Positions 2,569 through 15,814 of a DNA stretch of 64,000 nt are shown here, one piece after another. The position numbers and the translations under genes were made by a program. Origin of the DNA: a virus. Its lineage: Duplodnaviria > Caudoviricetes. The stretch's first letter is position 1. Each line of letters opens with the position of its first letter. Location: IMG/VR virus record IMGVR_UViG_3300037418_000840, one strand, 5' to 3'. The notes under the pieces were generated by a model. It did not search any database. It was not told the DNA's origin and saw nothing but the letters and a program-made list of their open reading frames with translations.

Positions 2569-3319
2569 CAAAGTTCAAGCCGGCCAGAAGCCCGATCCGA
2601 AAGACGGCAATGCCAAGGCTCGATACATCATGCACTACCGCATGAGCATCATGGCAGTGTTCCGGGCTATTCGTGAAGGACGCGTGTCCGAAGAAGAGCT
2701 CGATCGATTGCAGAATTTCTGTCAGTTCTCCCTCAACGCAATGCAGCGTTTGCCTATGACTGACATCCAAGGTGCTTGGCGTGATACCGAGATCTTCGGC
2801 CATATCCATGATGAAGAAGGTGCGACGTTCGTCGATCATCAGATCATCTTGGATCCAGCCAAGCAAGGACAGTCGGTGACCGCTGTCCAGTCGGAGACCA
2901 CGGCCAGCACCCCGTCTCAGCTACCGGGCCGCATCCGTGATTCGATCGACAAGTGGATCGATGAGGAATTCACTGCATACGAAAAGCTCGATGAAGTGGA
3001 GAAGGCGATGGTCCGCAACGCGGCGACTATGGCGTCTGGCCTTCAGGGTGACGTGACTCCCGATCAAATACTGGCGGGCAACACGCACAATACGACGGAG
3101 CTCTCTTTACTGCACGCTGATCTTGTGCAGACAATGCCTGCGGCCAGCACTCGTTTCACTGATGACCAGATGGAGTACAAACTATTCGGCTTCCTCTGGC
3201 ACGGTCGTAAGATTATTCTGTGCGATGACGGGATCGGTGTGTTCGTCAGTCGTTCAACAGCCCGCGAAGTGTATCGCACATACGGGCCAGCGCAATCAGC
3301 GACTGTGGTCGGTGCGTAA
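2537..3319 (+). CDS. Hypothetical protein
   Basis: GGAG before ATG 2537; 260 aa ORF. Confidence 0.7.
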   Translation: MAKTKKTHTRNKVQAGQKPDPKDGNAKARYIMHYRMSIMAVFRAIREGRVSEEELDRLQNFCQFSLNAMQRLPMTDIQGAWRDTEIFGHIHDEEGATFVDHQIILDPAKQGQSVTAVQSETTASTPSQLPGRIRDSIDKWIDEEFTAYEKLDEVEKAMVRNAATMASGLQGDVTPDQILAGNTHNTTELSLLHADLVQTMPAASTRFTDDQMEYKLFGFLWHGRKIILCDDGIGVFVSRSTAREVYRTYGPAQSATVVGA

Positions 3320-3323
3320 ATAG
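3316..3323 (+). promoter_or_regulatory. GTAAATA motif (candidate phage promoter)
   Basis: GTAAATAG at the gene end, upstream of structured RNA. Confidence 0.55.
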
Positions 3324-3442
3324 GTAGGTCGAGATAGACAGTGATCGGTCCTTTCAACTAGCAGTACGTTAAAGCAACGAATCGGGTCGCAACTCACACG
3401 CCGGGTGAGATCTGGTTTTATCCCAGATCACTGCTTGACTAA

Positions 3443-3518
3443 GATGGGGATAGTAGATCGGAGTAGACGCTCGCGCAACGCCTAGCACGAGAGAGGGGGT
3501 TCGACTCCCCACCCCATC
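3443..3518 (+). ncRNA. tRNA-like element lacking a D-stem
   Basis: GATGGGG/CCCCATC acceptor-like stem, GGGG-TTCGACT-CCCC T-arm, CTCG..CGAG middle arm with no canonical anticodon loop, no CCA. Confidence 0.55.
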
Positions 3519-3539
3519 CGATTAACCTAAGAGGTTCCT

Positions 3540-3854
3540 ATGAACATAAGTGAAGCATTTGTTGATGCCGATGCGTATCATGAAATCGGCAAGGCTATGG
3601 CAGCCTTTATTATGGAATCCGCACAGCGTCCGGGGTTCATGCGCACGTTGGAATTCCATCGAACCAATCACACGGTCGAGGAATTCACCAAGCAAGAACA
3701 GATCCAGGTCGATCGTATCAAACGGAAGCACCGTCACCTGACGTTGGTCGACGATCGCTACTTGGTACGCGCTCTCCGCCGCCAAGCCTATGCTGGTCCC
3801 AAGAGCACACGCCGTCGATACACCGCAGACCTCCGTCCGTACACTTCGGACTAA
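3540..3854 (+). CDS. Hypothetical protein
   Basis: GAGG RBS. Confidence 0.65.
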   Translation: MNISEAFVDADAYHEIGKAMAAFIMESAQRPGFMRTLEFHRTNHTVEEFTKQEQIQVDRIKRKHRHLTLVDDRYLVRALRRQAYAGPKSTRRRYTADLRPYTSD

Positions 3855-7534: not shown

Positions 7535-8051
7535 CAAGACTCGGAAGTACGAAGTATTGGACGTGACTACCACTTCGTGGGTGCCTGCTCACTGGGAGCA
7601 GCTTGACGAAGGAGACGTGGTTCGCAGTTGCGACTCAACGACTTACGATGGTCCTATGACCGAAGAGTACGTAGTGGCGCACCATCCGGCTCTCATGGTC
7701 GATGTAGTGAAGGGCCAATGTCGTAGACCAACCACCAAGTACAAGACGGTAGCCGGCGACACATTGAAAGCGTTGGCCGCCCGTCACGACGTGTCAACAC
7801 ACTTCATTCGCTACACAAACTGGATGCGTGATGAAGATGATGCGTCGCTCACAGAAGGGATCGAGCTCGAGCTTCCTGTCCCGACTCCGCGTCCGAAGTC
7901 AGAGCTAGATCTCAAGGTTGAACGTCTGCGCACAACTGCTCAAGCTATGATCGATGCCTTCGCACCCTACGTTGATCCCTCTTGGCCGTCCACCATTGAG
8001 TGGCAGAACTTCAAAGCTGCGTTGGATGCCTTTGGTACCGATCATGCGTGA
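7521..8051 (+). CDS. LysM-domain-containing protein
   Basis: YKTVAGDTLKALAARHDVSTHFIRYTN matches the LysM consensus. Confidence 0.7.
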   Translation: MRNLDKTRKYEVLDVTTTSWVPAHWEQLDEGDVVRSCDSTTYDGPMTEEYVVAHHPALMVDVVKGQCRRPTTKYKTVAGDTLKALAARHDVSTHFIRYTNWMRDEDDASLTEGIELELPVPTPRPKSELDLKVERLRTTAQAMIDAFAPYVDPSWPSTIEWQNFKAALDAFGTDHA

Positions 8052-8111
8052 GACTCGGTGATCGAATGTTGGTCCTCGTGTCTGAGAAGGCCCCAATTGT
8101 ATGAGGCAGCA

Positions 8112-8119
8112 GTAAATAG
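8112..8119 (+). promoter_or_regulatory. GTAAATA motif
   Basis: GTAAATAG 10 nt before tRNA-Thr. Confidence 0.6.
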
Positions 8120-8129
8120 GTGAGCCAGT

Positions 8130-8207
8130 GCCCCGTTAGCTCTTAATTGGCAGAGCAGCGGATTTGTAATCCGAGGGTTGGGAGTTCGAGTCTCTCACGG
8201 GGCACCA
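8130..8207 (+). tRNA. trnT: tRNA-Thr(UGU)
   Basis: Cloverleaf; loop TT-TGT-AA; encoded CCA. Confidence 0.95.
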
Positions 8208-8224
8208 TTCATCTAGAGGACATC

Positions 8225-8560
8225 ATGGCCAAGGTCAGCGTCAAAGGCACGTTTCACAAACAGGTCGAGGTCACACTCCCCGAATCGGAACTAGTCGATC
8301 ACGTGAAGGCCATCGTACGGCGACATCATAACATTCGTGAGGGCGATTTCCTTCGCGGAAACACGGTAGTCTACGATGATCCCGATCACCGACATGGTTC
8401 GATCCGAGAACTAGAACGTGGTCCAGCGTCTGAACTCCAGCTTCTCGGATTCCAGATCCTGGACTATCTTGGAAAGTTGAATCTCGTTCTCACGTCGGAA
8501 GAAAACCGGTCGATCATGGACTACGTACCGGGCCTACGCCGCCCCCAGTCCCCAATTTAA
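8225..8560 (+). CDS. Hypothetical protein
   Basis: GAGG RBS before ATG 8225. Confidence 0.7.
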   Translation: MAKVSVKGTFHKQVEVTLPESELVDHVKAIVRRHHNIREGDFLRGNTVVYDDPDHRHGSIRELERGPASELQLLGFQILDYLGKLNLVLTSEENRSIMDYVPGLRRPQSPI

Positions 8561-8576
8561 CGTTCCTGTCGTTGCA

Positions 8577-8584
8577 GTAAATAG
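8577..8584 (+). promoter_or_regulatory. GTAAATA motif
   Basis: GTAAATAG upstream of tRNA-Gly. Confidence 0.6.
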
Positions 8585-8600
8585 CACGGTAAGTCACGAA

Positions 8601-8676
8601 GCGAGCATACGTCAGTTGGTTAGACCACCGTCCTTCCAAGTCGGGAACCCGAGTTCGAATCTCGGTGCTCGCTCCA
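8601..8676 (+). tRNA. trnG: tRNA-Gly(UCC)
   Basis: Cloverleaf; loop CT-TCC-AA; CCA. Confidence 0.95.
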
Positions 8677-8695
8677 TCCTTTCCGGGAGCTTTAA

Positions 8696-8950
8696 ATGCC
8701 CATCTTGGGATCGACTCCGTGTTGCGACAATCATCTGTGTGTCTGGCTTGAGAACGAGAACGAAGTACTCGGTAAGTGGTACAAACACCAGTGCGAACAC
8801 TGTGGAACTTGGATCTTCACGCTTCTGTCGAATCTGAGTCCGGTGTCGTACACTGAGGAAGCGTTCAAGGCTGAATACGAAATCGATGAAGCAACGAAGC
8901 AGATCAAGAAGCGCGAATCATCCGAAGGACAAGTCACAAGCGTGCCGTAA
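8696..8950 (+). CDS. Small Cys-rich (Zn-binding?) protein
   Basis: PCC and CEHC motifs; GGAG RBS. Confidence 0.65.
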   Translation: MPILGSTPCCDNHLCVWLENENEVLGKWYKHQCEHCGTWIFTLLSNLSPVSYTEEAFKAEYEIDEATKQIKKRESSEGQVTSVP

Positions 8951-8954
8951 ATAC
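8947..8954 (+). promoter_or_regulatory. GTAAATA motif
   Basis: GTAAATAC inside GCCGT-AAAT-ACGGT hairpin, before tRNA-Gly. Confidence 0.6.
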
Positions 8955-8966
8955 GGTAAGCACAGC

Positions 8967-9041
8967 GCGGGCGTAGTTCAGTGGTAGAATTCTTGCTTGC
9001 CAAGCAAGAGGTCACGGGTTCGACCCCCGTCGCCCGCTCCA
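8967..9041 (+). tRNA. trnG: tRNA-Gly(GCC)
   Basis: Cloverleaf; loop TT-GCC-AA; CCA. Confidence 0.95.
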
Positions 9042-9120
9042 AGTTTCACGAACGTTCGTTCTGTCGTTTCGACTTGTAAGGTCCCCGTCTGAATTGACGA
9101 ACGTTCCCTTTGTCTTCTGT

Positions 9121-9196
9121 TCCGCTTAACGCACAACGGTGTGCGGCCGGACTGTTAATCCGTGTGAGTCAGGTTCGATTCCTGAAGGCGGAGCCA
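9121..9196 (+). tRNA. trnN: tRNA-Asn(GUU)
   Basis: Cloverleaf; loop CT-GTT-AA; CCA. Confidence 0.93.
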
Positions 9197-9222
9197 CCAA
9201 TTCCATCGTCAACGAGAACAAG

Positions 9223-9507
9223 ATGAAACTCCTCCCACTGTATGACCGAGTCCTTGTCAAGCCCCTCGACAAGAAAACCGAATCGGGTATCGTGATTGCC
9301 GGTTCGTCTGACCGAAACGATCAAGGCGAAGTCGTTGCCGTTGGTCCGGGTCCGATCCTCAACGACGGGACACAGAAGCCTCTGGCTGTCCAGGTCGGCG
9401 ACACCGTGATGTTCGTCCCTGGAACCGGTCATCCAGTGAAGATCGACGGCGAAGACATGCGTGTCTTCCCCGAGTTCGAACTCGTTGGCATCCTCCGCGA
9501 GGACTAG
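9223..9507 (+). CDS. groES: Co-chaperonin GroES
   Basis: MKLLPLYDRVLVKP...TESGIVI...GEVVAVGPG...VQVGDTVMF, 94 aa. Confidence 0.95.
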   Translation: MKLLPLYDRVLVKPLDKKTESGIVIAGSSDRNDQGEVVAVGPGPILNDGTQKPLAVQVGDTVMFVPGTGHPVKIDGEDMRVFPEFELVGILRED

Positions 9508-9509
9508 AC

Positions 9510-9947
9510 ATGAGCGGACGCCCGGTCAAGATTCTTCACCTAATGGTGGGTTCGGACAATTGGAAGCCGACACACGAGGAGTTGATTCAAGTAATTGAAT
9601 GCTTCGAATCAGCGTGCGAAGGCGGGAAGAAGTCGTTGTCTGCCGACGCAGCGGCCAAAGAAACAATGGTCGCAGTGGCAACGAATCACGAAGTGAAATC
9701 GGAAGTCCTTTCCATAACGGAAGACGATCCGATTTATGTTCTCGCCAACTTTGAATCACTTCGCGAGACAATTGCCCGTCGACTCCTCAACGAATTCTTG
9801 ATCGACTCGGCAACGCATCAACCGTTACCGCTCGATGCCTCGAAGGACACGGTGAATGGCTTCCATCTTTGCCTCAGCAATTTGAAGAAGCGAATTGAAG
9901 AACTCCTCGCAGAGGAGACGAAGGTTAGCGACAACAGACAGGCTTAA
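9510..9947 (+). CDS. Hypothetical protein
   Basis: GAGG RBS. Confidence 0.7.
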   Translation: MSGRPVKILHLMVGSDNWKPTHEELIQVIECFESACEGGKKSLSADAAAKETMVAVATNHEVKSEVLSITEDDPIYVLANFESLRETIARRLLNEFLIDSATHQPLPLDASKDTVNGFHLCLSNLKKRIEELLAEETKVSDNRQA

Positions 9948-10018
9948 CCAGATACCGAAATTTCTGGTCTGTCCTGGGTCGTCAAAACCGGGAACCGCGT
10001 CTAGACGCGACCCGGCCT

Positions 10019-10095
10019 CGGAGCGTAGCGCAGCCCGGTAGCGCATCTGATTTGGGATCAGAGGGTCGCAGGTTCGAATCCTGTCGCTCCGACCA
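10019..10095 (+). tRNA. trnP: tRNA-Pro(UGG)
   Basis: Cloverleaf; loop TT-TGG-GA; CCA. Confidence 0.95.
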
Positions 10096-10109
10096 GTTTT
10101 GTTTCACTT

Positions 10110-10271
10110 GTCCAGGATGCCAGAGTGGTTTAATGGTAGCTGAGTGGCCGAGTGGTGTGCGAGTTCCTGAAAGGAGCCGTAGTTCTAGACTGCGAGCCTT
10201 TAAACGGGGACGGCGGTGTCTCAGGCTGCCAGTCAAACACCCACGTAGGTTCGAATCCTACCCTGGACGCC
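10110..10271 (+). ncRNA. tRNA-like RNA with a large structured insert in place of the anticodon arm (nested tRNA-like element)
   Basis: GTCCAGG/CCTGGAC acceptor, CCA-GAGTGGTTTAA-TGG D-arm, GTAGG-TTCGAAT-CCTAC T-arm; insert 10138-10231 ends in GCCA. Confidence 0.65.
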
Positions 10272-10325
10272 TTATGAACGACGATTTGGTATTTGGATAA
10301 AGGGCACAAACTTGAATGCCGTGTG

Positions 10326-10430
10326 CGGCGAGAAGTGTGGTCCTCCAGCCTAGAATCGTCGTCCATAAGGCTTGACTTCTTAGGTGTGCGGGTTCGAGTC
10401 CCGATCGCTGGCCGAGACTATGGTAGACAC
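10326..10430 (+). ncRNA. tRNA-fragment element: T-arm followed by a Leu-type D-loop
   Basis: CGGG-TTCGAGT-CCCG at 10389-10403, then TGGCCGAGACTATGGTAGACAC. Confidence 0.45.
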
Positions 10431-10509
10431 AGCGGGCGGTAGCCACTCCGTCCGTGGAGCGCGCGGCCGGTGGGCCGTCCCTAAAAGACGGAACACCTAA
10501 GAGGTTAAG

Positions 10510-10716
10510 ATGAACAGTCCAAGTGCAGAGCAGGTTAGACTCTCACGAGTCCGAGCAGGTCTCACTCAGAAGCAAGCTGCTTCAGTTGTCTACGTCGGCG
10601 AACGTATGTGGCAGCGGTATGAAGCTGGGACATATGAAATGCATCCAGGACTGTGGGAACTGTTTCGTTACAAGGTCTTCCACGTTAGACCAGACCCAAT
10701 CACGGCTGGAGACTAG
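10510..10716 (+). CDS. XRE-family HTH regulator
   Basis: VRLSRVRAGLTQKQAASVVYVGERMWQRYEAG. Confidence 0.85.
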   Translation: MNSPSAEQVRLSRVRAGLTQKQAASVVYVGERMWQRYEAGTYEMHPGLWELFRYKVFHVRPDPITAGD

Positions 10717-10717
10717 C

Positions 10718-10972
10718 ATGACGACCATGAACGTACGAGACTTGATCTACGAGACTAAGGAATACGAAGGTCCTCTCAACCTTCCAGGAAAATCCATTGA
10801 ATGCCCCGAATGCAAGATTTTCTACGAGGCTAGTAAATGGAGTGCATGGGATTGCCCATGCGATTCATGCGGATCGCATCCAATCTTACTGTGTCCTGAG
10901 CGCCATACATTTGATCCGTATGGTGGAGATGACTTAGACTTGCAGGTCAAAGACGATGGCGTTGATCAGTAA
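10718..10972 (+). CDS. Zn-ribbon protein
   Basis: CPEC, CPCDSCG, CPERH; GGAG RBS. Confidence 0.7.
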   Translation: MTTMNVRDLIYETKEYEGPLNLPGKSIECPECKIFYEASKWSAWDCPCDSCGSHPILLCPERHTFDPYGGDDLDLQVKDDGVDQ

Positions 10973-11138
10973 TCGAGAATTCTTCGATCCGGAATTCTAC
11001 CGGTTCATGCAGCAAGATTTCGAGGACATACGACGCAGACGTAAGCAACTGAAAGGACGACCCGATTCTGAACAGATGGCCGTCCTTGAATGTGAGCGTC
11101 AGTTCGAAGCCTTCTACAAGAAGTTCCTCGATTTGTAG
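10956..11138 (+). CDS. Hypothetical protein
   Basis: Overlaps the upstream gene and ends just before tRNA-Ser. Confidence 0.55.
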   Translation: MALISNREFFDPEFYRFMQQDFEDIRRRRKQLKGRPDSEQMAVLECERQFEAFYKKFLDL

Positions 11139-11142
11139 ATTT

Positions 11143-11230
11143 GGAAATGTGGCTGAGTGGGTTAAGGCAGCGGCGTGCTAAGCCGTCGAGTCGCGAGGCT
11201 CCGTTGGTTCGAATCCAACCATTTCCGCCA
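11143..11230 (+). tRNA. trnS: tRNA-Ser(GCU)
   Basis: Long variable arm; loop GT-GCT-AA; GCCA end. Confidence 0.93.
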
Positions 11231-11234
11231 AGTA

Positions 11235-11324
11235 GTTCGTCTCTGAGGCGTTGGGTCAGCACCAACCGGCTCTCTCGTGGATACGAGGGGGCTGTGGTCT
11301 AGCGGTAAGGGCGCAGGGACGAAC
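11235..11324 (+). ncRNA. Circularly permuted tRNA-like RNA (YrlA-like topology)
   Basis: 11-bp closing stem, AGGC variable loop, 5-bp/7-nt T-like arm, 12-bp closed acceptor-like hairpin, TGGTCTAGCGGTAAGGGC D-arm. Confidence 0.7.
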
Positions 11325-11333
11325 GCTCGTTGA

Positions 11334-11421
11334 GGAAGCGTGGCTGAGTGGGTTAAGGCAGCGGTCTTGAAAACCGTCGTCGGGAAACCGGCCGTGAGTT
11401 CGAATCTCACCGCTTCCGCCA
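11334..11421 (+). tRNA. trnS: tRNA-Ser(UGA)
   Basis: Long variable arm; loop CT-TGA-AA; GCCA. Confidence 0.95.
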
Positions 11422-11492
11422 TTGTCGCAGTCTTCGTGTCACGCGTGGATAACAGGCATCCTGTGCTTGCCAAGTCGGACACGGAAATTCAC

Positions 11493-11560
11493 GGACCACT
11501 AACTCAGTGGTAGAGCGCCTCGTTAGAGGTTGGTCACGGGTTCGATTCCCGTGTGGTCCG
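11493..11560 (+). ncRNA. tRNA-like element with shrunken anticodon loop
   Basis: GGACCAC/GTGGTCC acceptor, CTCAGTGGTAGAG D-arm, ACGGG-TTCGATT-CCCGT T-arm; anticodon arm CCTC-GTTA-GAGG; no CCA. Confidence 0.65.
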
Positions 11561-11583
11561 TGTCACCGATTCAAGATGGTGTA

Positions 11584-11591
11584 GTAAATAC
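11584..11591 (+). promoter_or_regulatory. GTAAATA motif
   Basis: GTAAATAC in TAGT-AAAT-ACTA hairpin before tRNA-Tyr. Confidence 0.6.
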
Positions 11592-11603
11592 TAAGGTAAC
11601 GTC

Positions 11604-11689
11604 GGACGTGTAGTGTAAGTGGTCAAAACCAGTGGACTGTAAATCCGCCGCCTCGTGCTTCGTAGGTTCGAATCCTACCGCGTCCACCA
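11604..11689 (+). tRNA. trnY: tRNA-Tyr(GUA)
   Basis: Loop CT-GTA-AA; variable arm; CCA. Confidence 0.95.
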
Positions 11690-11705
11690 CTTCCTTAGAC
11701 TAGTT

Positions 11706-11825
11706 AGAAATCTTAGATGCGGCCGTATCTCAATGGTAGAGACCCGGATTGTGATTCCGGTTACGTGAGTTCGATTCTCACCGGTCGCCCCATAGGCCAC
11801 GAAGGCGGTCGCATCTAAGATTTCT
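11706..11825. repeat. 19-bp inverted repeat enclosing tRNA-His
   Basis: AGAAATCTTAGATGCGGCC (11706-11724) vs GGTCGCATCTAAGATTTCT (11807-11825), with one G-U pair. Confidence 0.9.
11719..11792 (+). tRNA. trnH: tRNA-His(GUG)
   Basis: Loop TT-GTG-AT; C73-CCA; no encoded G-1. Confidence 0.93.
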
Positions 11826-11827
11826 GT

Positions 11828-11904
11828 AGCGGGATAGAGCAGCTAGGTAGCTCGTCGGGCTCATAATCCGAAGGTCGGAGGTTCAAATCCTTCTCCCGCA
11901 ACCA
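11828..11904 (+). tRNA. trnfM: Initiator tRNA-fMet(CAU)
   Basis: 1:72 mismatch (A:A), GGG in the anticodon stem, loop CT-CAT-AA, CCA. Confidence 0.9.
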
Positions 11905-11912
11905 CCGTGTTG

Positions 11913-12038
11913 TGATCGCACTAAGGTCGTAGGAATGGACTAATCATCCGGACCCCAATTTCCATGGCCGCGCAGTAACCTCGTTACTGAGCCGTCTGGT
12001 GGTGTAGACCTGTCGGGAACGTGTTCCCGACGCGATCA
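11913..12038 (+). ncRNA. Candidate structured spacer RNA
   Basis: TGATCGC/GCGATCA closing stem enclosing hairpins CAGTAAC-CTC-GTTACTG and GTCGGGAAC-GT-GTTCCCGAC. Confidence 0.4.
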
Positions 12039-12066
12039 GCCTTTAGCTGTAGATTGTGAGGTCTTC

Positions 12067-12258
12067 ATGGACGCTCAACAGTACAAAAGCGCTATAGACG
12101 CGCTCCAGGACGGACCTCAATTGGTGCCTCGTACAGTAATCTACGACGGAGTTCTTTACGAACGTCGTCCTACGATAAGTGTGTGCTGGACCCCGAATGA
12201 TGGTTGGTCTGTCAAAGAGTACGACAAGATCGAGACTCAAAGTTTGAAGGCGTCATAG
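12067..12258 (+). CDS. Hypothetical protein; stop codon lies inside tRNA-Asp
   Basis: GAGG RBS; 63 aa. Confidence 0.6.
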   Translation: MDAQQYKSAIDALQDGPQLVPRTVIYDGVLYERRPTISVCWTPNDGWSVKEYDKIETQSLKAS

Positions 12259-12325
12259 AACAATTGGTTAGTTCACCGGCCTGTCACGCCGGAGGTTACG
12301 GGTTCGAGTCCCGTTGACGTCGCCA
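12249..12325 (+). tRNA. trnD: tRNA-Asp(GUC)
   Basis: Loop CT-GTC-AC; GCCA. Confidence 0.95.
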
Positions 12326-12384
12326 GTTAAACGGCGCGCGAATGGACATGCCAGTCCATGGTTTGAAACTTCGCTCGGCGTTTC

Positions 12385-12472
12385 GGGTGAGTAGTTCAGT
12401 GGTTAGAACACGGGCGACGCCTTCTCCGGTAGAAATCGCCTGAGGTCGTAGGTTCGAATCCTATCTCACCCA
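12385..12472 (+). ncRNA. tRNA-like element (Val-type acceptor) with anticodon arm extended by 15 nt
   Basis: GGGTGAG/CTCACCC acceptor, GTTC/GAAC D-stem, GTAGG-TTCGAAT-CCTAT T-arm; 22 nt between CGGGC and GCCTG; no CCA. Confidence 0.7.
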
Positions 12473-12563
12473 TCTTGTTTCAATGGGACAGCATTCTGAT
12501 TGGTCAGCCATCGGCGTCTGTGTTGACGCAACGTGCGGACACAAGAGGAGTGCGGTCCCGCCC

Positions 12564-12641
12564 GGGACCGTAGCTCAACGGATTTAGAGTAGTGGCCTAC
12601 GAAGCCATTGGTTGGGGGTTCGAATCCCTCCGGTCCCACCA
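12564..12641 (+). tRNA. trnR: tRNA-Arg(ACG)
   Basis: Loop CT-ACG-AA; CCA. Confidence 0.95.
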
Positions 12642-12653
12642 TTCATGCAGTAC

Positions 12654-12730
12654 AGTGGGGTAGCTCAGACGGTTAGAGCGTTCGCTTGATAAGCGAGAGG
12701 TCGGAGGTTCGACTCCTCTCCTCACTACCA
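12654..12730 (+). tRNA. trnI: tRNA-Ile(GAU)
   Basis: Loop TT-GAT-AA; CCA. Confidence 0.95.
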
Positions 12731-12738
12731 AGAAGTCC

Positions 12739-12814
12739 GGACAGGTAACTCAGTTGGTAGAGTGCTAGACTGAAAATCTAGTGGTCGCTGGTTCGATTCC
12801 AGTCCTGTCCACCA
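12739..12814 (+). tRNA. trnF: tRNA-Phe(GAA)
   Basis: Loop CT-GAA-AA; CCA. Confidence 0.95.
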
Positions 12815-12834
12815 AGTTGTTTCAGTACCGTGTA

Positions 12835-12842
12835 GTAAATAG
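12835..12842 (+). promoter_or_regulatory. GTAAATA motif
   Basis: GTAAATAG 11 nt before tRNA-Gln. Confidence 0.6.
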
Positions 12843-12853
12843 GTTGTGTCTGT

Positions 12854-12932
12854 TGGGGGTTAGCCAAGTCCGGTCCAAGGCAGTTGGTTTTGATCCAACC
12901 ATTCACAGGTTCGAATCCTGTACCCCCTGCCA
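12854..12932 (+). tRNA. trnQ: tRNA-Gln(UUG)
   Basis: Loop TT-TTG-AT; GCCA. Confidence 0.93.
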
Positions 12933-12943
12933 CTCACTCCTGT

Positions 12944-13018
12944 GTGTGATTCGTCTAGCGGTTAGGACACTGCCCTTTCACGGCGGTAACACGAGTTCGA
13001 ATCTCGTATCGCACGCCA
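12944..13018 (+). tRNA. trnE: tRNA-Glu(UUC)
   Basis: Loop CT-TTC-AC; GCCA. Confidence 0.95.
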
Positions 13019-13042
13019 TTCATTGATTCATCGTTTCATGCA

Positions 13043-13118
13043 GGGGCTTTAGTTCAGCTGGTAGAACAGCGGTCTCCAAAGCCGCGTGTCGGGAGTTCGA
13101 GTCTCTCAGGCCCCGCCA
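13043..13118 (+). tRNA. trnW: tRNA-Trp(CCA)
   Basis: Loop CT-CCA-AA; GCCA. Confidence 0.95.
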
Positions 13119-13128
13119 CCGTTTTTAT

Positions 13129-13190
13129 AGGGCGTCCCAGTCGTAGTAGTGTCGAACCCCCGTCGGCGCTGCTCGGGGACGCCCTCTTTT
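13129..13190 (+). terminator. Long hairpin with T-tract after tRNA-Trp
   Basis: AGGGCGTCCC/GGGACGCCCT stem plus an inner 8-bp stem, followed by CTTTT. Confidence 0.55.
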
Positions 13191-13209
13191 ATACCCATAG
13201 AGGTTCCAA

Positions 13210-13524
13210 ATGTCCGCCCAAGACGTGAACGTGCGTGAAGTGCCCGGCAACATCTCGATCCCTGACCTGAGTGATTATCATGGAACAGTCGCTGAACTGG
13301 AGCTCAGGGTAAATGCGCTAGCTCACGTATATGGTGGCGACTCAATCATCTCGTTCGACGCCGGACACAACAACATCGAAGCAGTGCTCGTAACTCGGGC
13401 CAGTATCGACGCTCACACGAAGGCCGTTCAAACCAAGGCCGAACGTCGCTCGTCCAAGAGGCGCGAGAAGCTGCAACGGCGCATCGCCGAACTTCAACAG
13501 GAACTGGAAGACCTCCATGACTGA
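13210..13524 (+). CDS. Hypothetical protein with C-terminal coiled coil
   Basis: GAGG RBS. Confidence 0.7.
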   Translation: MSAQDVNVREVPGNISIPDLSDYHGTVAELELRVNALAHVYGGDSIISFDAGHNNIEAVLVTRASIDAHTKAVQTKAERRSSKRREKLQRRIAELQQELEDLHD

Positions 13525-13717
13525 TGAAGTCTTGGTGTTAGAGGCGGCACTAAAGGCTCTGACCCGTAGATTCGACGAATTCGTGGGTCAGTGCATGGAC
13601 GATGCGGGAAAGCCGCGTGCGCCGTCGCCGAAGGCACTGGCCCAGGCTCGTGCCTGCCTTCCGCCTGAAACCACAAAGAACGGATACGCGTCTAAGTTCA
13701 AACCGGCGGCGATGTGA
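13517..13717 (+). CDS. Hypothetical protein; stop codon lies inside tRNA-Cys
   Basis: Overlaps the upstream stop. Confidence 0.65.
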   Translation: MTDEVLVLEAALKALTRRFDEFVGQCMDDAGKPRAPSPKALAQARACLPPETTKNGYASKFKPAAM

Positions 13718-13784
13718 CTGAGTGGTCTAAGGTCCGGGTCTGCAAAACCTTGGTTCGTGGGTTCGAATCCCACCATCGCCTCCA
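13708..13784 (+). tRNA. trnC: tRNA-Cys(GCA)
   Basis: Loop CT-GCA-AA; U73-CCA. Confidence 0.92.
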
Positions 13785-13792
13785 TACGTTGT

Positions 13793-13868
13793 GGGCCGTT
13801 AGCTCATTGGTCAAGAGCCGTGGACTCATAATCCACTGGTGACGGTTCGATTCCGTCACGGCCCACCA
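13793..13868 (+). tRNA. tRNA(CAU), Ile2 or elongator Met
   Basis: Loop CT-CAT-AA; paired 1:72; CCA; body resembles Ile2-type tRNAs. Confidence 0.9.
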
Positions 13869-13885
13869 TTCATTAAGGATCTAGC

Positions 13886-14104
13886 ATGTCTAACAACACG
13901 TTGCAAAGATCGCAATCAGCAATCAAGACACTGAGCGAAACCGTACAGCGTGCTTATGCTCACGCTAGGTCACTGGGCTACACAGGATCATCGCTTGAGT
14001 ACGCGATGCTGATCCTACCGGAGGACACGCTTGTTACGGACAACACTGGATACTCGGGCACGCTGCGAGACACTCCTTCGATTAGTGAACTGTTGAACAT
14101 CTAG
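13886..14104 (+). CDS. Hypothetical protein
   Basis: AAGGA RBS. Confidence 0.6.
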   Translation: MSNNTLQRSQSAIKTLSETVQRAYAHARSLGYTGSSLEYAMLILPEDTLVTDNTGYSGTLRDTPSISELLNI

Positions 14105-14980: not shown

Positions 14981-15814
14981 ATGGCACGACTCCCACGGCT
15001 CTACATTCCTGGTCAGGCACAGTACGTCATCCTGCAAACGATAGACGAACGTCCCGCATTCGTGAACGATTCCGACTACGAATTCTTCCTCGAATGTGTT
15101 CGAGACGCTGTGCCGGTGGCAGACATAGCAATTCATGCGTATGCTCTTCTGCCAAACGCCGTTCATATGATGGTCACACCTTCGACTGAGACGTGTCTGC
15201 CGCTATTCATGCAGACTGTAGGTCGTCGTTACGTGGCGCGTTTCAATCGCGAACACGGTCGGAGAGGCACCATCTGGGCAGGTCGTTATCGTGCGACGGC
15301 CATCGAGGGATCTTCGTGGGGTATCTTCGCCTATCAGTACATCGACAAGCTAGTGCCTCGTTCCGAGGCCACAGCCTTGAAGTCGACCCTTGGTCTTCAC
15401 ATAGGGATCGAAGGATCAACGTTCGTAGTTCATCGTCCAGAATATTGGGCGCTTGGAAATACGCCGTTCGATCGTCAACACGTATATCGCCTTATGTGCG
15501 ATCAGGAACTCGATCCGACTCGCATCGAACTGCTGATCGATGCGGCTACACGCGGCTGGGCTCTTGGTAGTCCTGAGTATCTAGCCTGGGCCGCCACGGT
15601 CGCCAATCGTCGAATCGGCAAGATGAAGCGCGGTCGCCCACGCAAAGATGGAACTCCGCGACAAGTTGACGTTCGTACAGTAGCGAAATCCAACGCTCCG
15701 GCTGTGTCAACGGTTAATCCGTCAACAACAGAGCAAGCACCCCGCGTTTTGAGCGTTCCAACTGTGTGGCCCACTTTCCCTTCTCTCCATGGACAATCAA
15801 ATGACGATCAGTAA
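14981..15814 (+). CDS. RAYT/Y1 transposase homolog with degenerate HUH motif
   Basis: MARLPRL, IHAYALLPNAVHMM (NHxH changed to NAxH), GTIWAGRYRA, YWALGNTPF, KRGRPRK. Confidence 0.8.
   Translation: MARLPRLYIPGQAQYVILQTIDERPAFVNDSDYEFFLECVRDAVPVADIAIHAYALLPNAVHMMVTPSTETCLPLFMQTVGRRYVARFNREHGRRGTIWAGRYRATAIEGSSWGIFAYQYIDKLVPRSEATALKSTLGLHIGIEGSTFVVHRPEYWALGNTPFDRQHVYRLMCDQELDPTRIELLIDAATRGWALGSPEYLAWAATVANRRIGKMKRGRPRKDGTPRQVDVRTVAKSNAPAVSTVNPSTTEQAPRVLSVPTVWPTFPSLHGQSNDDQ

What the first reader, a model, noticed from the sequence alone, without database searches (positions are those of the whole stretch)
8130..13868. Canonical tRNA set lacks Ala, Val, Leu and Lys while aberrant tRNA-like RNAs with similar identity features sit in the cluster
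Seen: 19 canonical tRNAs (Thr, Gly x2, Asn, Pro, Ser x2, Tyr, His, fMet, Asp, Arg, Ile, Phe, Gln, Glu, Trp, Cys, CAU), none for Ala, Val, Leu or Lys. Five elements keep tRNA T-arm and/or D-arm signatures but have no normal anticodon loop or usable terminal CCA: 10110 and 10326 (Leu/Ser-type D-loops), 11235 (GGGGCTG with G3-U70, the Ala identity), 11493 (TGGTC variable region as in Lys-type tRNAs) and 12385 (GGGTGAG, A73, Val-like). Inference: a family of tRNA mimics or decoys, for example against anticodon nucleases, synthetases, RelA or RNA-repair factors, rather than decayed pseudogenes, because the stems are intact.
Basis: partly seen in the sequence, partly recalled or inferred. Interest (0 to 1): 0.78.

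Follow-up and report, generated by a model that had tools for sequence, protein, structure and literature searches.

The report
Non-decoding tRNA look-alikes in jumbo phage
A soil jumbo phage related to Ralstonia phage phiRSL1 carries 19 normal tRNA genes plus several tRNA-shaped RNAs that cannot read codons, and the same three odd designs recur in related and unrelated large phages, so they look like working RNAs of unknown job rather than dead genes.

Summary
The observation largely holds. ARAGORN and Rfam find 19 canonical tRNAs, all at 8130-13868, and none for Ala, Val, Leu or Lys in about 190 kb of a roughly 232-kb genome. About 41 kb was not read as DNA. Four of the five aberrant elements are real tRNA-like RNAs. 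The "10326" element is instead part of two structured domains in front of an HTH gene.

The main new result is comparative. The designs fall into three recurrent classes:
- **Oversized:** a tRNA frame with 18-75 nt in place of the anticodon loop (E1, E5).
- **Mini-loop:** a 3-4 nt loop where the anticodon loop should be (E4).
- **Permuted:** T arm, then a closed acceptor, then D arm, the YrlA order (E3).

All three classes occur in cultured phage phiRSL1. BCSR5 has an oversized one, BcepSauron a mini-loop one, and uncultured relatives oversized and permuted ones. Oversized and permuted examples also occur in unrelated phage contigs. Stems differ between these copies yet all still pair.

Between strains the elements differ by 0-0.4%, against about 1.5% for ORFs. 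This argues against decayed pseudogenes and against spliced tRNAs.

The proposed link to the four missing amino acids is not supported. A decoy function is untested. No Rsr, RtcB, Rnl2 or CCA-adding enzyme gene was found. Other first-stage notes on this same genome had already flagged these elements.

The parts
8130..13868 (+). tRNA cluster. It holds 19 canonical tRNAs (Thr, Gly x2, Asn, Pro, Ser x2, Tyr, His, initiator Met, Asp, Arg, Ile, Phe, Gln, Glu, Trp, Cys, CAU), interleaved with small ORFs (including a GroES homologue at 9214-9507) and the aberrant elements.
   Evidence: ARAGORN; Rfam tRNA model; Cpn10 hit. The scan shows NCCA for the 17 canonical tRNAs it recovers; Gln and fMet were read from the sequence.
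10110..10269 (+). E1, an oversized ('giant') tRNA-like RNA. It has a 7-bp acceptor (GTCCAGG/CCTGGAC), a class-II type D arm (motif CAGAGTGGTTTAATG), a canonical T arm (GTAGG-TTCGAAT-CCTAC) and discriminator G, with no CCA. About 107 nt lie between the D and T arms. Within that, about 75 nt are enclosed by a CTGAG/CTCAG helix where the anticodon loop would be.
   Evidence: Fold z = -2.7. No Rfam hit at E <= 10. Homologues with the same D-loop motif and length occur in BCSR5, G006/G007, G008 and 14 metagenome contigs.
10269..10371 (+). Domain A, a 103-nt rod-like hairpin directly behind E1.
   Evidence: z = -7.1, 0 of 200 shuffles fold as well. Its 18-nt terminal arms are self-complementary. Identical in the strain variants.
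10372..10508 (+). It is a four-way junction with a T-loop hairpin (GCGGG-TTCGAGT-CCCGA, 10389-10405). Its roughly 15-bp closing helix pairs with the AAGAGG ribosome-binding site of the HTH gene that starts at 10510.
   Evidence: MFE structures and z = -3.8; sequence. No differences in the strain variants.
11235..11324 (+). E3, a circularly permuted tRNA-like RNA. In order it has: one strand of an 11-bp closing helix (GTTCGTCTCTG, pairing with CAGGGACGAAC at the far end); a T-like arm (GTTGG-GTCAGCA-CCAAC); an acceptor stem closed by a loop (11 bp; inner 7 bp GGGGCTG/CGGCTCT with G3-U70); TG; a D arm (GTCT-AGCGGTAA-GGGC); and the other strand of the closing helix.
   Evidence: Sequence. z = -4.6. 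The only strict permuted hit in the 172-kb record besides one internal to tRNA-Gly, against about 2 per shuffled genome. Same topology in phiRSL1, G007 and five other phage contigs.
11493..11560 (+). E4, a tRNA body whose anticodon arm is reduced to a 4-bp stem (CCTC/GAGG) with a GTTA tetraloop. Acceptor, D arm, TGGTC variable region and T arm are canonical. Discriminator G, no CCA.
   Evidence: Rfam tRNA 43 bits; fold z = -2.6. Analogues are phiRSL1 (69 nt, loop GACG, ARAGORN 'tRNA-??? (ac)') and BcepSauron (69 nt, 3-nt loop, GCCA end).
12385..12472 (+). E5, a tRNA body with an enlarged anticodon arm: a 7-bp stem (CGGGCGA/TCGCCTG) around an 18-nt loop. Discriminator A, no CCA.
   Evidence: Rfam tRNA 58.3 bits. 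ARAGORN forces 'Gly-gcc' or, in intron mode, 'Ser-aga' with an 11-nt intron. Strain variants carry G>A at 12428 in the loop and T>C at 12464, which turns a G-U pair of the T stem into G-C.
3339..3519 (+). An AGTAAATA-like motif (3316-3322) is followed by a long hairpin (3339-3435) and then a 77-nt tRNA-like element (3443-3519). That element has acceptor GATGGGG/CCCCATC, T loop TTCGACT and no CCA, and sits just before the ribosome-binding site of the ORF at 3540.
   Evidence: Sequence. Best Rfam match is tRNA-Sec, 20 bits, E 0.1. Folds are weak, z = -1.3 and -1.5. No difference inside either element in strain L047; its nearest changes are at 3331 and 3538.
8111..12841 (+). Promoter-like AGTAAATA motifs at 8111, 8576, 11583 and 12834 (plus CGTAAATA near 8947). 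They divide the cluster into tRNA/ORF transcription units that contain the mimics.
   Evidence: 10 matches in the window, all on the + strand, against 0.47 expected. The same motif precedes the mimic arrays of phiRSL1, G001 and G007.

Best explanation
The aberrant elements are maintained, non-decoding tRNA-shaped RNAs. They belong to three architectural classes that recur in phiRSL1-like jumbo phages, and two of the classes also occur in unrelated phage contigs.
- **Oversized:** a domain of 18-75 nt replaces the anticodon loop.
- **Mini-loop:** the anticodon loop is cut down to 3-4 nt.
- **Permuted:** the order is T arm, closed acceptor, D arm, as in YrlA, with the RNA ends forming the helix where the anticodon stem would be.

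**Shown.** Each keeps the acceptor/T-arm helix and the D-loop/T-loop elbow, and each has lost a usable anticodon loop.

**Inferred.**
- They are transcribed inside the tRNA/ORF units that begin at AGTAAATA motifs.
- The standard-topology ones are cut out by RNase P and by RNase Z. RNase Z prefers substrates without CCA.
- They then act through the tRNA shape by binding tRNA-recognising proteins of host or phage, as mimics, sponges or adaptors. The oversized class may also present an extra structured domain.

The absence of Ala, Val, Leu and Lys tRNAs is most likely incidental and not linked to the mimics.
For: **Integrity in this phage**
- E1, E4 and E5 have 7/7 acceptor and 5/5 T-stem pairs, canonical T loops and GG-containing D loops.
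- E3 folds with z = -4.6.

**Recurrence in cultured relatives**
- phiRSL1 carries a 124-nt oversized element, a 69-nt mini-loop element and two permuted elements in tandem.
- BCSR5 has a 158-nt element with the same D-loop motif as E1.
- BcepSauron has a 69-nt mini-loop element.

**Recurrence in uncultured relatives**
- G001 is complete, has 0 canonical tRNAs and 3 mimics.
- G007 is complete, shares 57% TerL identity, and has oversized elements and two permuted ones.

**Enrichment over chance**
- Permuted pattern: 8 of 42 hits in IMG/VR have 7/7 closing-acceptor pairs and all others have 5 or fewer. About 0.04 were expected.
- Giant pattern: 14 of 80 metagenome hits have a 7/7 acceptor plus a 5/5 T stem. 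About 0.4 were expected.

**Covariation**
- The acceptor differs completely between the phiRSL1 and G007 copies of the second permuted element (CCGCCGT/ACGGCGG against CTCACCT/AGGTGAG), while the T and D arms are identical.
- In the seven-member subfamily around the unrelated 326-kb phage G008, 23 of 44 pairs show two-sided changes, including pairs in the inserted domain. That domain also holds invariant single-stranded motifs.

**Purifying selection between strains**
- 0 differences in 627 nt, and 2 in 540 nt, inside the elements. ORFs differ by 1.46% and 1.63%.
- One of the two changes restores a Watson-Crick pair.

**Other**
- The Rfam YrlA model matches the permuted relatives over its full length at 31-41 bits, E from 1e-5 to 1e-2.
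- Classes co-occur: metagenome contig L192 has two YrlA-like hits, a giant element and a 106-nt tRNA hit side by side.
Against: - No expression or processing data exist. RNA-library contigs cover the region at the same depth as the ORFs and could be DNA carry-over.
- No partner protein is identified. No TROVE/Rsr gene is present in this record or in five complete relatives. No RtcB, Rnl2-type ligase or CCA-adding enzyme gene was found in the 172 kb.
- The inserted domain of E1 cannot be aligned with those of BCSR5 or G007. In this lineage it may therefore be unconstrained.
- E3 itself gets no Rfam hit. My own covariance model cannot separate permuted elements from adjacent tRNA pairs.
- Members were collected by requiring paired stems, so the '100% paired' figures are partly circular.
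- Lack of CCA is not universal: G001-B, a G007 element and the BcepSauron element end in CCA.
Confidence: 0.55

Rival explanations
1. They are cis-acting processing and regulatory modules, not trans-acting mimics. The tRNA shape would only recruit RNase P and RNase Z to cut the polycistronic tRNA/ORF transcripts at set points (tRNA punctuation). This would release and stabilise neighbouring mRNAs or RNAs. Domain B additionally gates the ribosome-binding site of the HTH gene.
For: - Conservation falls exactly on what RNase P and RNase Z read (acceptor/T helix and elbow), while the anticodon region varies freely.
- The three standard-topology mimics lack CCA, which is an anti-determinant for RNase Z (established knowledge), whereas all 19 true tRNAs encode it.
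- Several elements sit directly before a ribosome-binding site. These are the one at 3443-3519 before the ORF at 3540, E1 with domains A and B before the HTH gene, and the phiRSL1 124-nt element before ORF268.
- The closing helix of domain B covers AAGAGG.
Against: - E3, E4 and E5 lie between tRNA genes with no ORF to release.
- The acceptor helix of the permuted class is closed and continuous (11 bp or more), which is a poor RNase P substrate.
- The G008-like subfamily conserves sequence and structure inside the inserted domain, which a pure cutting signal would not need.
- phiRSL1 and G007 express two permuted elements as a separate unit. In G007 it ends at a terminator-like hairpin.
Confidence: 0.22
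2. They are specifically decoys or inhibitors of host anti-phage systems that target tRNA. Candidates are anticodon nucleases such as PrrC, RloC and PARIS AriB, VapC-type toxins, and enzymes that modify the acceptor end.
For: - The mimics keep the tRNA body but have no cleavable anticodon loop.
- Jumbo phages are known to invest in countering attacks on tRNA (PMC7824862).
- The genome's missing arc encodes an RlaP nucleotidyltransferase, a family tied to RNA repair.
- Mimic content varies strongly between related phages, as counter-defence genes often do.
Against: - There is no direct evidence of any kind.
- Anticodon nucleases mostly read the anticodon loop, which is exactly what these RNAs lack.
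- No defence-related partner gene lies next to the elements.
- The host is unknown.
Confidence: 0.12
3. They are decaying tRNA pseudogenes or neutral remnants of a once complete tRNA set. The lost Ala, Val, Leu and Lys genes would be among them.
For: - E4 could arise from a normal tRNA by a single 5-nt deletion in the anticodon loop plus loss of CCA.
- The acceptor of E5 resembles tRNA-Val and that of E3 resembles tRNA-Ala (from memory of E. coli sequences, not tested).
- The inserted domain of E1 is not alignable with its homologues.
- Strains differ by large indels inside the cluster.
Against: - Every stem of the tRNA frame is intact.
- The same architectures recur, with different stem sequences that all still pair, across phages sharing only about 57% TerL identity and in unrelated phages.
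- Substitution density is 0-0.4% against about 1.5% in ORFs and 0.5-0.8% in other intergenic DNA.
- G001 keeps three mimics but no true tRNA.
Confidence: 0.07
4. They are real tRNAs interrupted by small introns, like the 'enigmatic introns' of Lak megaphages. After splicing they would supply the missing Ala, Val, Leu and Lys.
For: - ARAGORN in intron mode proposes Glu-ctc with a 77-nt intron for E1 and Ser-aga with an 11-nt intron for E5.
- Oversized phage tRNA genes have been reported as intron-bearing (bioRxiv 10.1101/356790).
- E1 contains a hairpin with a 7-nt loop UUCUAGA, that is U33 followed by CUA.
Against: - No cut within the E1 loop can produce a 7-nt loop with U33 (checked by hand on the sequence).
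- ARAGORN's isotypes are neither the missing ones nor compatible with the bodies (a class-II body called Glu, a class-I body called Ser).
- No group I or other ribozyme family matches.
- No RtcB or Rnl2-type ligase gene was found in the 172 kb.
- E4 has a deletion rather than an insertion, and E3 is permuted.
- TAG is used as an ordinary stop codon here, for example in the GroES and HTH genes, so an amber suppressor is not needed.
Confidence: 0.04

Closest known systems
YrlA, the bacterial and phage Y RNA-like tRNA mimic (Rfam RF02553; Chen et al. 2014, PMC4201824)
   Same: The order is T stem-loop, acceptor-like stem-loop, then D stem-loop, with the RNA ends forming a long helix. The conserved T-loop and D-loop residues allow an elbow to form. 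YrlA has been reported in phages. The Rfam model aligns over its full length to the phiRSL1 P-II, L100, L101 and L109 relatives, and over part of it to L130, at 31-41 bits.
   Different: All scores are below the gathering score of 69, and E3 gets no hit. No Ro60/Rsr (TROVE) gene is present in this record or in five complete relatives, whereas YrlA is defined by lying next to rsr. The GNCGAAN0-1G Ro-binding motif is not on the 5' strand. In E3 a match (GACGAACG) lies on the 3' strand and is not conserved in relatives. The T loop of E3 is GUCAGCA rather than UUCGAAU.
Oversized 'pseudo-tRNAs' with 'enigmatic introns' in Lak megaphages (Devoto et al., bioRxiv 10.1101/356790)
   Same: Both are tRNA genes much longer than normal, sitting inside large phage tRNA clusters. 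The insert lies in the anticodon region, is highly conserved between strains, and sometimes itself looks tRNA-like. The function is unknown.
   Different: In the Lak phages the inserts were treated as introns, with an isotype and anticodon assigned by eukaryote-mode tRNAscan. Here no excision restores a canonical anticodon loop. The oversized members with the class-II D-arm motif (E1 and its homologues) lack CCA. In one subfamily the insert is a covarying structured domain.
Two-piece (permuted) tmRNA of alpha- and beta-proteobacteria
   Same: The gene order is permuted, with T arm and 3' acceptor strand upstream of the 5' acceptor strand. The 5' acceptor strand of E3 is GGGGCUG with G3-U70. 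The beta_tmRNA model gives weak hits (23-25 bits) on the permuted elements.
   Different: There is no tag reading frame, no pseudoknots and no CCA. ARAGORN finds no tmRNA. G3-U70 is present in only 2 of 8 permuted members.
Stable RNAs C and D (species 1 and 2) of the phage T4 tRNA cluster (from my own knowledge, not checked here)
   Same: They are small stable RNAs of unknown function, encoded among phage tRNA genes and co-processed with them.
   Different: No sequence or structural relation was tested. My one literature search for them failed on a formatting limit.
tRNA-like processing elements (mascRNA of MALAT1, MHV68 tRNA-miRNA units) and the engineered 'tRNA scaffold' for RNA expression (PMC3753655 appeared)
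   Same: A tRNA frame is used for RNase P/Z processing and stability without any decoding. The engineered scaffold replaces the anticodon arm with a cargo RNA, which is the design of E1.
   Different: These are eukaryotic, viral or artificial systems. There is no evidence that the phage elements are processed in this way.

Membership tests
Canonical tRNA (Rfam RF00005) | 7-bp acceptor stem, 5-bp T stem with a 7-nt T loop, and a D arm with GG | tested here: met
   E1, E4 and E5 have 7/7 and 5/5 pairs, T loops TTCGAAT or TTCGATT, and GG in the D loop. E3 has the same parts in permuted order.
Canonical tRNA (Rfam RF00005) | 5-bp anticodon stem with a 7-nt loop, U33 and an anticodon | tested here: not met
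   E4 has a 4-nt loop, E5 an 18-nt loop, and E1 about 75 nt inside the stem. E3 has no loop, because the RNA ends lie there.
Canonical tRNA (Rfam RF00005) | Score at or above the gathering score of 29 bits | tested here: inconclusive
   E4 scores 43 bits and E5 58.3 bits, which pass. E1, E3 and the 10326 region get no hit even at E <= 10.
Canonical tRNA (Rfam RF00005) | 3' CCA end, either encoded or added | tested here: not met
   CCA is not encoded in E1 (GCCT), E4 (GTGT) or E5 (ATCT), while all 19 true tRNAs encode it. Addition after transcription cannot be tested here.
YrlA / Y RNA-like (RF02553) | Order of T arm, acceptor-like stem-loop, D arm, closed by a helix formed by the RNA ends | tested here: met
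   E3 at 11235-11324. Relatives.
YrlA / Y RNA-like (RF02553) | Covariance-model score at or above the gathering score of 69 bits | tested here: not met
   E3 gets no hit. Permuted relatives score 31-41 bits.
YrlA / Y RNA-like (RF02553) | Encoded next to a Ro60/Rsr (TROVE) gene | tested here: not met
   PF05731 is absent from this record and from G001, G007, phiRSL1, BCSR5 and BcepSauron. The positive controls were detected. The 60-kb arc missing from this genome was not searched.
YrlA / Y RNA-like (RF02553) | Ro-binding motif GNCGAAN0-1G in the 5' strand of the terminal helix | tested here: inconclusive
   It is absent from the 5' strand of E3. GACGAACG lies on the 3' strand. G007 P-II has GTCGAAAG upstream, but phiRSL1 has CCTGAAAG at the same place.
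Intron-bearing tRNA (group I or protein-spliced) | Removing the insert restores a 5-bp stem and a 7-nt loop with U33 | tested here: not met
   This is impossible for E1, checked by hand on the sequence. For E5 it works only with a non-canonical 32/33 junction that gives Ser-aga on a class-I body.
Intron-bearing tRNA (group I or protein-spliced) | A recognisable ribozyme core or splicing enzymes | tested here: not met
   No intron or ribozyme family matches in the elements. No RtcB or Rnl2 gene was found in the 172 kb.
tmRNA | tRNA-like domain plus a tag reading frame and pseudoknots | tested here: not met
   ARAGORN finds none. Rfam gives only 23-25-bit partial beta_tmRNA hits, and only on relatives.
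Neutral tRNA pseudogene | Stem-breaking changes, no conservation in relatives, and a neutral substitution rate | tested here: not met
   Stems are intact. The architectures recur across lineages. Differences are 0-0.37%, against about 1.5% in ORFs.

The most novel reading that the evidence does not exclude
Large phages of several lineages share a modular toolkit of tRNA-shaped RNAs that has no Rfam family. One part is a widespread CCA-less 'giant' class, in which a class-II tRNA frame presents a structured domain of about 65-75 nt that could be a new aptamer, ribozyme or protein-recruiting module. The other part is a set of Rsr-independent Y-RNA-like permuted tRNAs. Together they would be used to hijack or blunt host machinery that reads tRNA shape. 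phiRSL1, BCSR5 and BcepSauron would be ready laboratory models.
Probability: 0.3. Interest if true: 0.85.

Novelty: new variant of a known kind. Interest (0 to 1): 0.66.

Why it matters
Phage tRNA clusters are usually read only as codon supplements or as spares against anticodon nucleases. Here a sizeable share of the 'tRNA' genes in a whole phage lineage cannot decode at all, yet they are conserved.

The permuted class extends Y-RNA-like tRNA mimicry to phages that have no Ro60 partner gene. That raises the question of what these RNAs bind.

The giant class is widespread in environmental phage contigs and has no Rfam family. In one subfamily it carries a covarying domain with invariant motifs, so it is a candidate for a new functional RNA.

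The same classes occur in cultured phages (phiRSL1 on Ralstonia, BCSR5 and BcepSauron on Burkholderia), so the question can be tested directly by northern blot, tRNA sequencing, pull-down and deletion.

Practically, annotation pipelines mislabel these elements. ARAGORN calls E5 'tRNA-Gly' and calls other elements 'tRNA-???'.

Tried and rejected
**Close relatives.** I looked for relatives carrying the same cluster. Megablast against phage records found only single tRNAs. Protein-anchored scans of viral contigs with two cluster ORFs found nothing useful. A 5.8-billion-protein search with the ORF at 10718-10969 found only itself. Only strains about 1% different could be fetched.

**Read laying.** I laid RNA-library and DNA contigs on 8000-14100.
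- The RNA-library contigs cover ORFs and tRNA genes alike, so they do not show transcription.
- The many 'joints' are assembly joins through conserved tRNA parts. No contig joined across the insert of E1 or E5.
- No RNA holder was listed for the phiRSL1 elements.

**Missing arc.** I walked the arc by exact-protein look-ups. Only 18.5 kb came with DNA.

**Isotype by similarity.** The results were inconsistent.

**Antisense targets.** I searched the phage genome for targets of the inserted domains. Only chance-level matches of 10-13 nt appeared, E >= 0.17.

**My covariance model.** Model R1 for the permuted class scores adjacent tRNA pairs as high as true members. The YrlA paper warns of the same artefact. 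It therefore says nothing about whether E3 belongs.

**Alignment.** MAFFT misplaces the divergent T arm of E3.

**Ideas rejected**
- Archaeal-type introns: no U33 can be restored and no splicing enzymes were found.
- Amber suppressor from the CUA hairpin of E1: TAG is an ordinary stop codon here.
- attP-type tRNA fragments: both acceptor strands are present.
- Selenocysteine or allo-tRNA for 3443-3519: 20 bits, with an A-A mismatch at the eighth pair.

**Failed call.** One literature search failed on a term-length rule.

Full report
**What the window is.** The window lies in an IMG/VR virus record of 171,762 bp with 54% G+C. CheckV rates it 72% complete.
- The large terminase is 57% identical to that of Ralstonia phage phiRSL1. 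It is 52-57% identical to those of Burkholderia phages BcepSauron and BCSR5.
- Near-identical DNA occurs in rhizosphere, root and soil runs from 12 studies.
- The longest contig carrying a cluster protein is 231,605 bp.
- Placing an SBP-LysM gene on both sides shows that G000 lacks a 59.8-kb arc.

**Checking the observation.**
- ARAGORN finds 20 genes, all at 8130-13868. Nothing else turns up in the record, with or without intron mode. Rfam agrees.
- One ARAGORN call, 12385-12472 as an 88-nt 'Gly-gcc', is the aberrant E5. That leaves 19 canonical tRNAs for 16 amino acids, with none for Ala, Val, Leu or Lys.
- I read 18.5 kb of the missing arc as DNA and it holds no tRNA. For about 21 kb more I saw only dense gene lists. 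About 20 kb was not seen.
- A strict scan recovers 17 of the true tRNAs plus E1, E4 and E5. Gln and fMet fail its 7/7 acceptor test; the initiator has the usual C1-A72 mismatch.
- All 19 true tRNAs encode NCCA and none of the three mimics does.
- E3 is a 90-nt structure with z = -4.6.
The first is a 103-nt rod (z = -7.1). The second is a 137-nt four-way junction (z = -3.8). The junction contains the T-loop hairpin, and its closing helix pairs with the ribosome-binding site of the HTH gene.

**Anatomy.**
- *E1* is a class-II-type tRNA frame. A CTGAG/CTCAG helix in the anticodon-stem position encloses about 75 nt.
- *E5* has a 7-bp stem around an 18-nt loop.
- *E4* has a 4-bp stem and a GUUA tetraloop.
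- *E3* is permuted. It runs closing helix, T-like arm, loop-closed acceptor (inner 7 bp GGGGCUG/CGGCUCU), D arm (loop AGCGGUAA), closing helix.
- All four keep U8-type linkers, a GG-containing D loop and a T loop able to form the elbow.
- A further tRNA-like element lies at 3443-3519. It follows a hairpin and an AGTAAATA-like motif.
- AGTAAATA occurs 10 times in the window, always on the + strand, against 0.47 expected. It heads the units that contain the mimics.

**Relatives.**
- Phages with 67-72% TerL identity have only 0-2 canonical tRNAs.
- G001 (complete, 217 kb) has no canonical tRNA. It carries three aberrant tRNA-like elements in tandem behind the same promoter-like motif.
- phiRSL1 carries four such elements:
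  - a 124-nt tRNA frame with about 67 nt in place of the anticodon loop;
  - a 69-nt body with a 5-bp stem and a GACG loop, which ARAGORN calls 'tRNA-??? (ac)';
  - two permuted elements in tandem after an AGTAAATA motif.
- BcepSauron has a 69-nt body with a 3-nt loop.
- BCSR5 has a 158-nt element with the same D-loop motif as E1 (CAGAGNGGNTTAATG) and almost the same length.
- G007 (complete, 245 kb, TerL 57%) has a similar tRNA cluster that includes a GroES gene. It also has a 158-nt giant element, other oversized elements, and the same pair of permuted elements as phiRSL1.
- Between phiRSL1 and G007 the second permuted element keeps identical T and D arms, while its acceptor is entirely different yet fully paired. 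The long acceptor helix of the first permuted element shows several two-sided changes.

**Beyond the lineage.**
- *Giant class.* A pattern built from the E1 D loop and T loop found true members in a 326-kb AT-rich phage (G008) in which no match to this terminase was found. It also found 14 of 80 metagenome hits with 7/7 acceptor and 5/5 T-stem pairs, where about 0.4 were expected. None of these ends in CCA.
- *G008-like subfamily.* Seven members give a consensus fold in which 23 of 44 pairs show two-sided changes. These include pairs inside the inserted domain, which also has invariant single-stranded motifs. No Rfam family matches that domain.
- *Permuted class.* A pattern for this class gave 42 hits. 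Eight of them (six distinct) have 7/7 closing pairs and the rest have 5 or fewer.
- *YrlA model.* The Rfam YrlA model matches these at 31-41 bits, below its threshold of 69.
- *Co-occurrence.* One metagenome contig holds two YrlA-like hits, a giant element and a 106-nt tRNA hit side by side.

**Selection within the species.**
- Two strain variants differ from the window by 1.46% and 1.63% in ORFs and by 0.5-0.8% in other intergenic DNA. Inside the elements the differences are 0 of 627 nt and 2 of 540 nt.
- By my Poisson arithmetic these give P of about 1e-4 and 7e-3 against the ORF rate.
- One of the two changes turns a G-U pair in the E5 T stem into G-C. The other lies in the E5 loop.
- The strains also differ by a 115-nt non-tRNA hairpin inserted between tRNA-Ile and tRNA-Phe, and by loss of 11911-12053.

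**What it most likely is.**
- Shown: three recurrent, structurally intact, slowly evolving classes of tRNA-shaped RNA without a usable anticodon loop.
- Inferred: they are co-transcribed with the tRNAs. The standard-topology ones are released by RNase P and RNase Z, since lack of CCA favours RNase Z. They work through the tRNA shape by binding tRNA-recognising proteins.
- The permuted class works like YrlA in topology but fails the membership tests. It scores below the gathering threshold, and no Rsr gene is present in six genomes.
- The YrlA paper shows that such modules are modified by tRNA enzymes. A member with a 7-bp acceptor is cut by RNase P and receives CCA (PMC4201824). This makes the processing inference reasonable but unproven here.

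**Rivals.**
- *Cis-acting processing or 'punctuation' role.* It fits the conservation pattern and the elements that sit before ribosome-binding sites. It does not fit E3-E5, which lie between tRNA genes, or the conserved inserted domain of the G008-like subfamily.
- *Decoy against tRNA-targeting defence.* It remains possible but has no evidence either way.
- *Pseudogenes.* These are disfavoured by stem integrity, recurrence and low divergence.
- *Intron-bearing tRNAs.* These are disfavoured for three reasons. No excision restores U33 in E1. ARAGORN's intron solutions give implausible isotypes. No ribozyme or ligase was found.

**The missing amino acids.**
- Mimics occur in relatives with 0, 2 or 10 canonical tRNAs. 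BcepSauron combines a mini-loop mimic with canonical tRNA-Leu.
- G3-U70 is not conserved in the permuted class.
- BLAST gives no consistent isotype.
- I therefore read the gap as incidental.

**Comparison with the literature.**
- Oversized 'pseudo-tRNAs' with 'enigmatic introns' were noted in Lak megaphages.
- A jumbo-phage survey discusses tRNAs, RlaP and Ro/TROVE with a tRNA-like partner.
- I found no paper describing these three classes together, or the CCA-less giant class. My searches were limited to open-access text.

**Verdict.** It is a new variant of a known kind (tRNA mimics of the YrlA type and oversized phage tRNA genes), and it can be tested in cultured phages.

Noticed in passing
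window 8111, 8576, 11583, 12834, 16182, 20085, 20677, 32891, 35053, 52503: AGTAAATA occurs 10 times, always on the + strand, against 0.47 expected. It lies in intergenic positions ahead of tRNA or ORF units. The same motif precedes the mimic arrays in phiRSL1, G001 and G007, so it is probably a lineage-specific promoter element.
   Followed up: partly
L015:3654-3770 (between tRNA-Ile and tRNA-Phe; window 12731/12738): Most strain variants carry a 115-nt insertion that folds into a long hairpin and is not tRNA-like. The same strains lack window 11911-12053, a 143-nt non-coding stretch after the initiator tRNA.
   Followed up: partly
window 9121-9196: tRNA-Asn(GUU) scores only 28.9 bits with the Rfam tRNA model, just under threshold. 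Its D arm appears to have a long stem and a 4-nt loop (CGCACA-ACGG-TGTGCG), which is reminiscent of tRNA-Sec D arms.
   Followed up: no
window 10269-10371: A 103-nt near-perfect rod hairpin (z = -7.1) lies directly behind E1 and in front of the ribosome-binding-site-sequestering domain of the HTH gene. It could be an RNase III site or a regulatory RNA.
   Followed up: partly
L015:1-1140 and L047 (window 8601-8676): Logan contig L015 joins the phage at tRNA-Pro to a high-G+C bacterial gene, which is an assembly chimera through a shared tRNA 3' half. In L047 the tRNA-Gly(UCC) differs at about 20 positions, so it is either a chimera or a replaced allele.
   Followed up: no
L051:2214-3068 (missing arc of the same genome): An RlaP-family nucleotidyltransferase (PF10127), a family linked to RNA-ligase repair systems, is encoded about 6 kb beyond the left end of the record. 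An NAD-dependent DNA ligase and an acyl-carrier-like protein lie further on (L055).
   Followed up: no
alignment A2 (L082, L162, L180, L187, L195, L203, L205): The giant tRNA-like subfamily of AT-rich large phages has invariant single-stranded motifs inside its inserted domain (for example AUGAUUG, AUCUUUUGCUC, GAGAAGCAAAUAUCGAAAGGG). It also has a covarying hairpin with a GUGAAC loop, and no Rfam family matches it. It is a candidate new structured RNA.
   Followed up: partly
L193:511-586: A type II hammerhead ribozyme hit (40.9 bits, above its threshold of 37) lies on the same small metagenome contig as a giant tRNA-like element, about 1.6 kb from it.
   Followed up: no
window 9214-9507 and L095 (G007): A GroES (Cpn10) homologue sits inside the tRNA cluster in this phage and also in the 57%-TerL relative G007. 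This suggests a conserved tRNA/chaperonin expression unit.
   Followed up: no
window 14981-15814: A 277-aa protein with a weak IS200-like Y1 transposase (HUH) hit lies 1.1 kb downstream of the cluster and is conserved in the strain variants.
   Followed up: no
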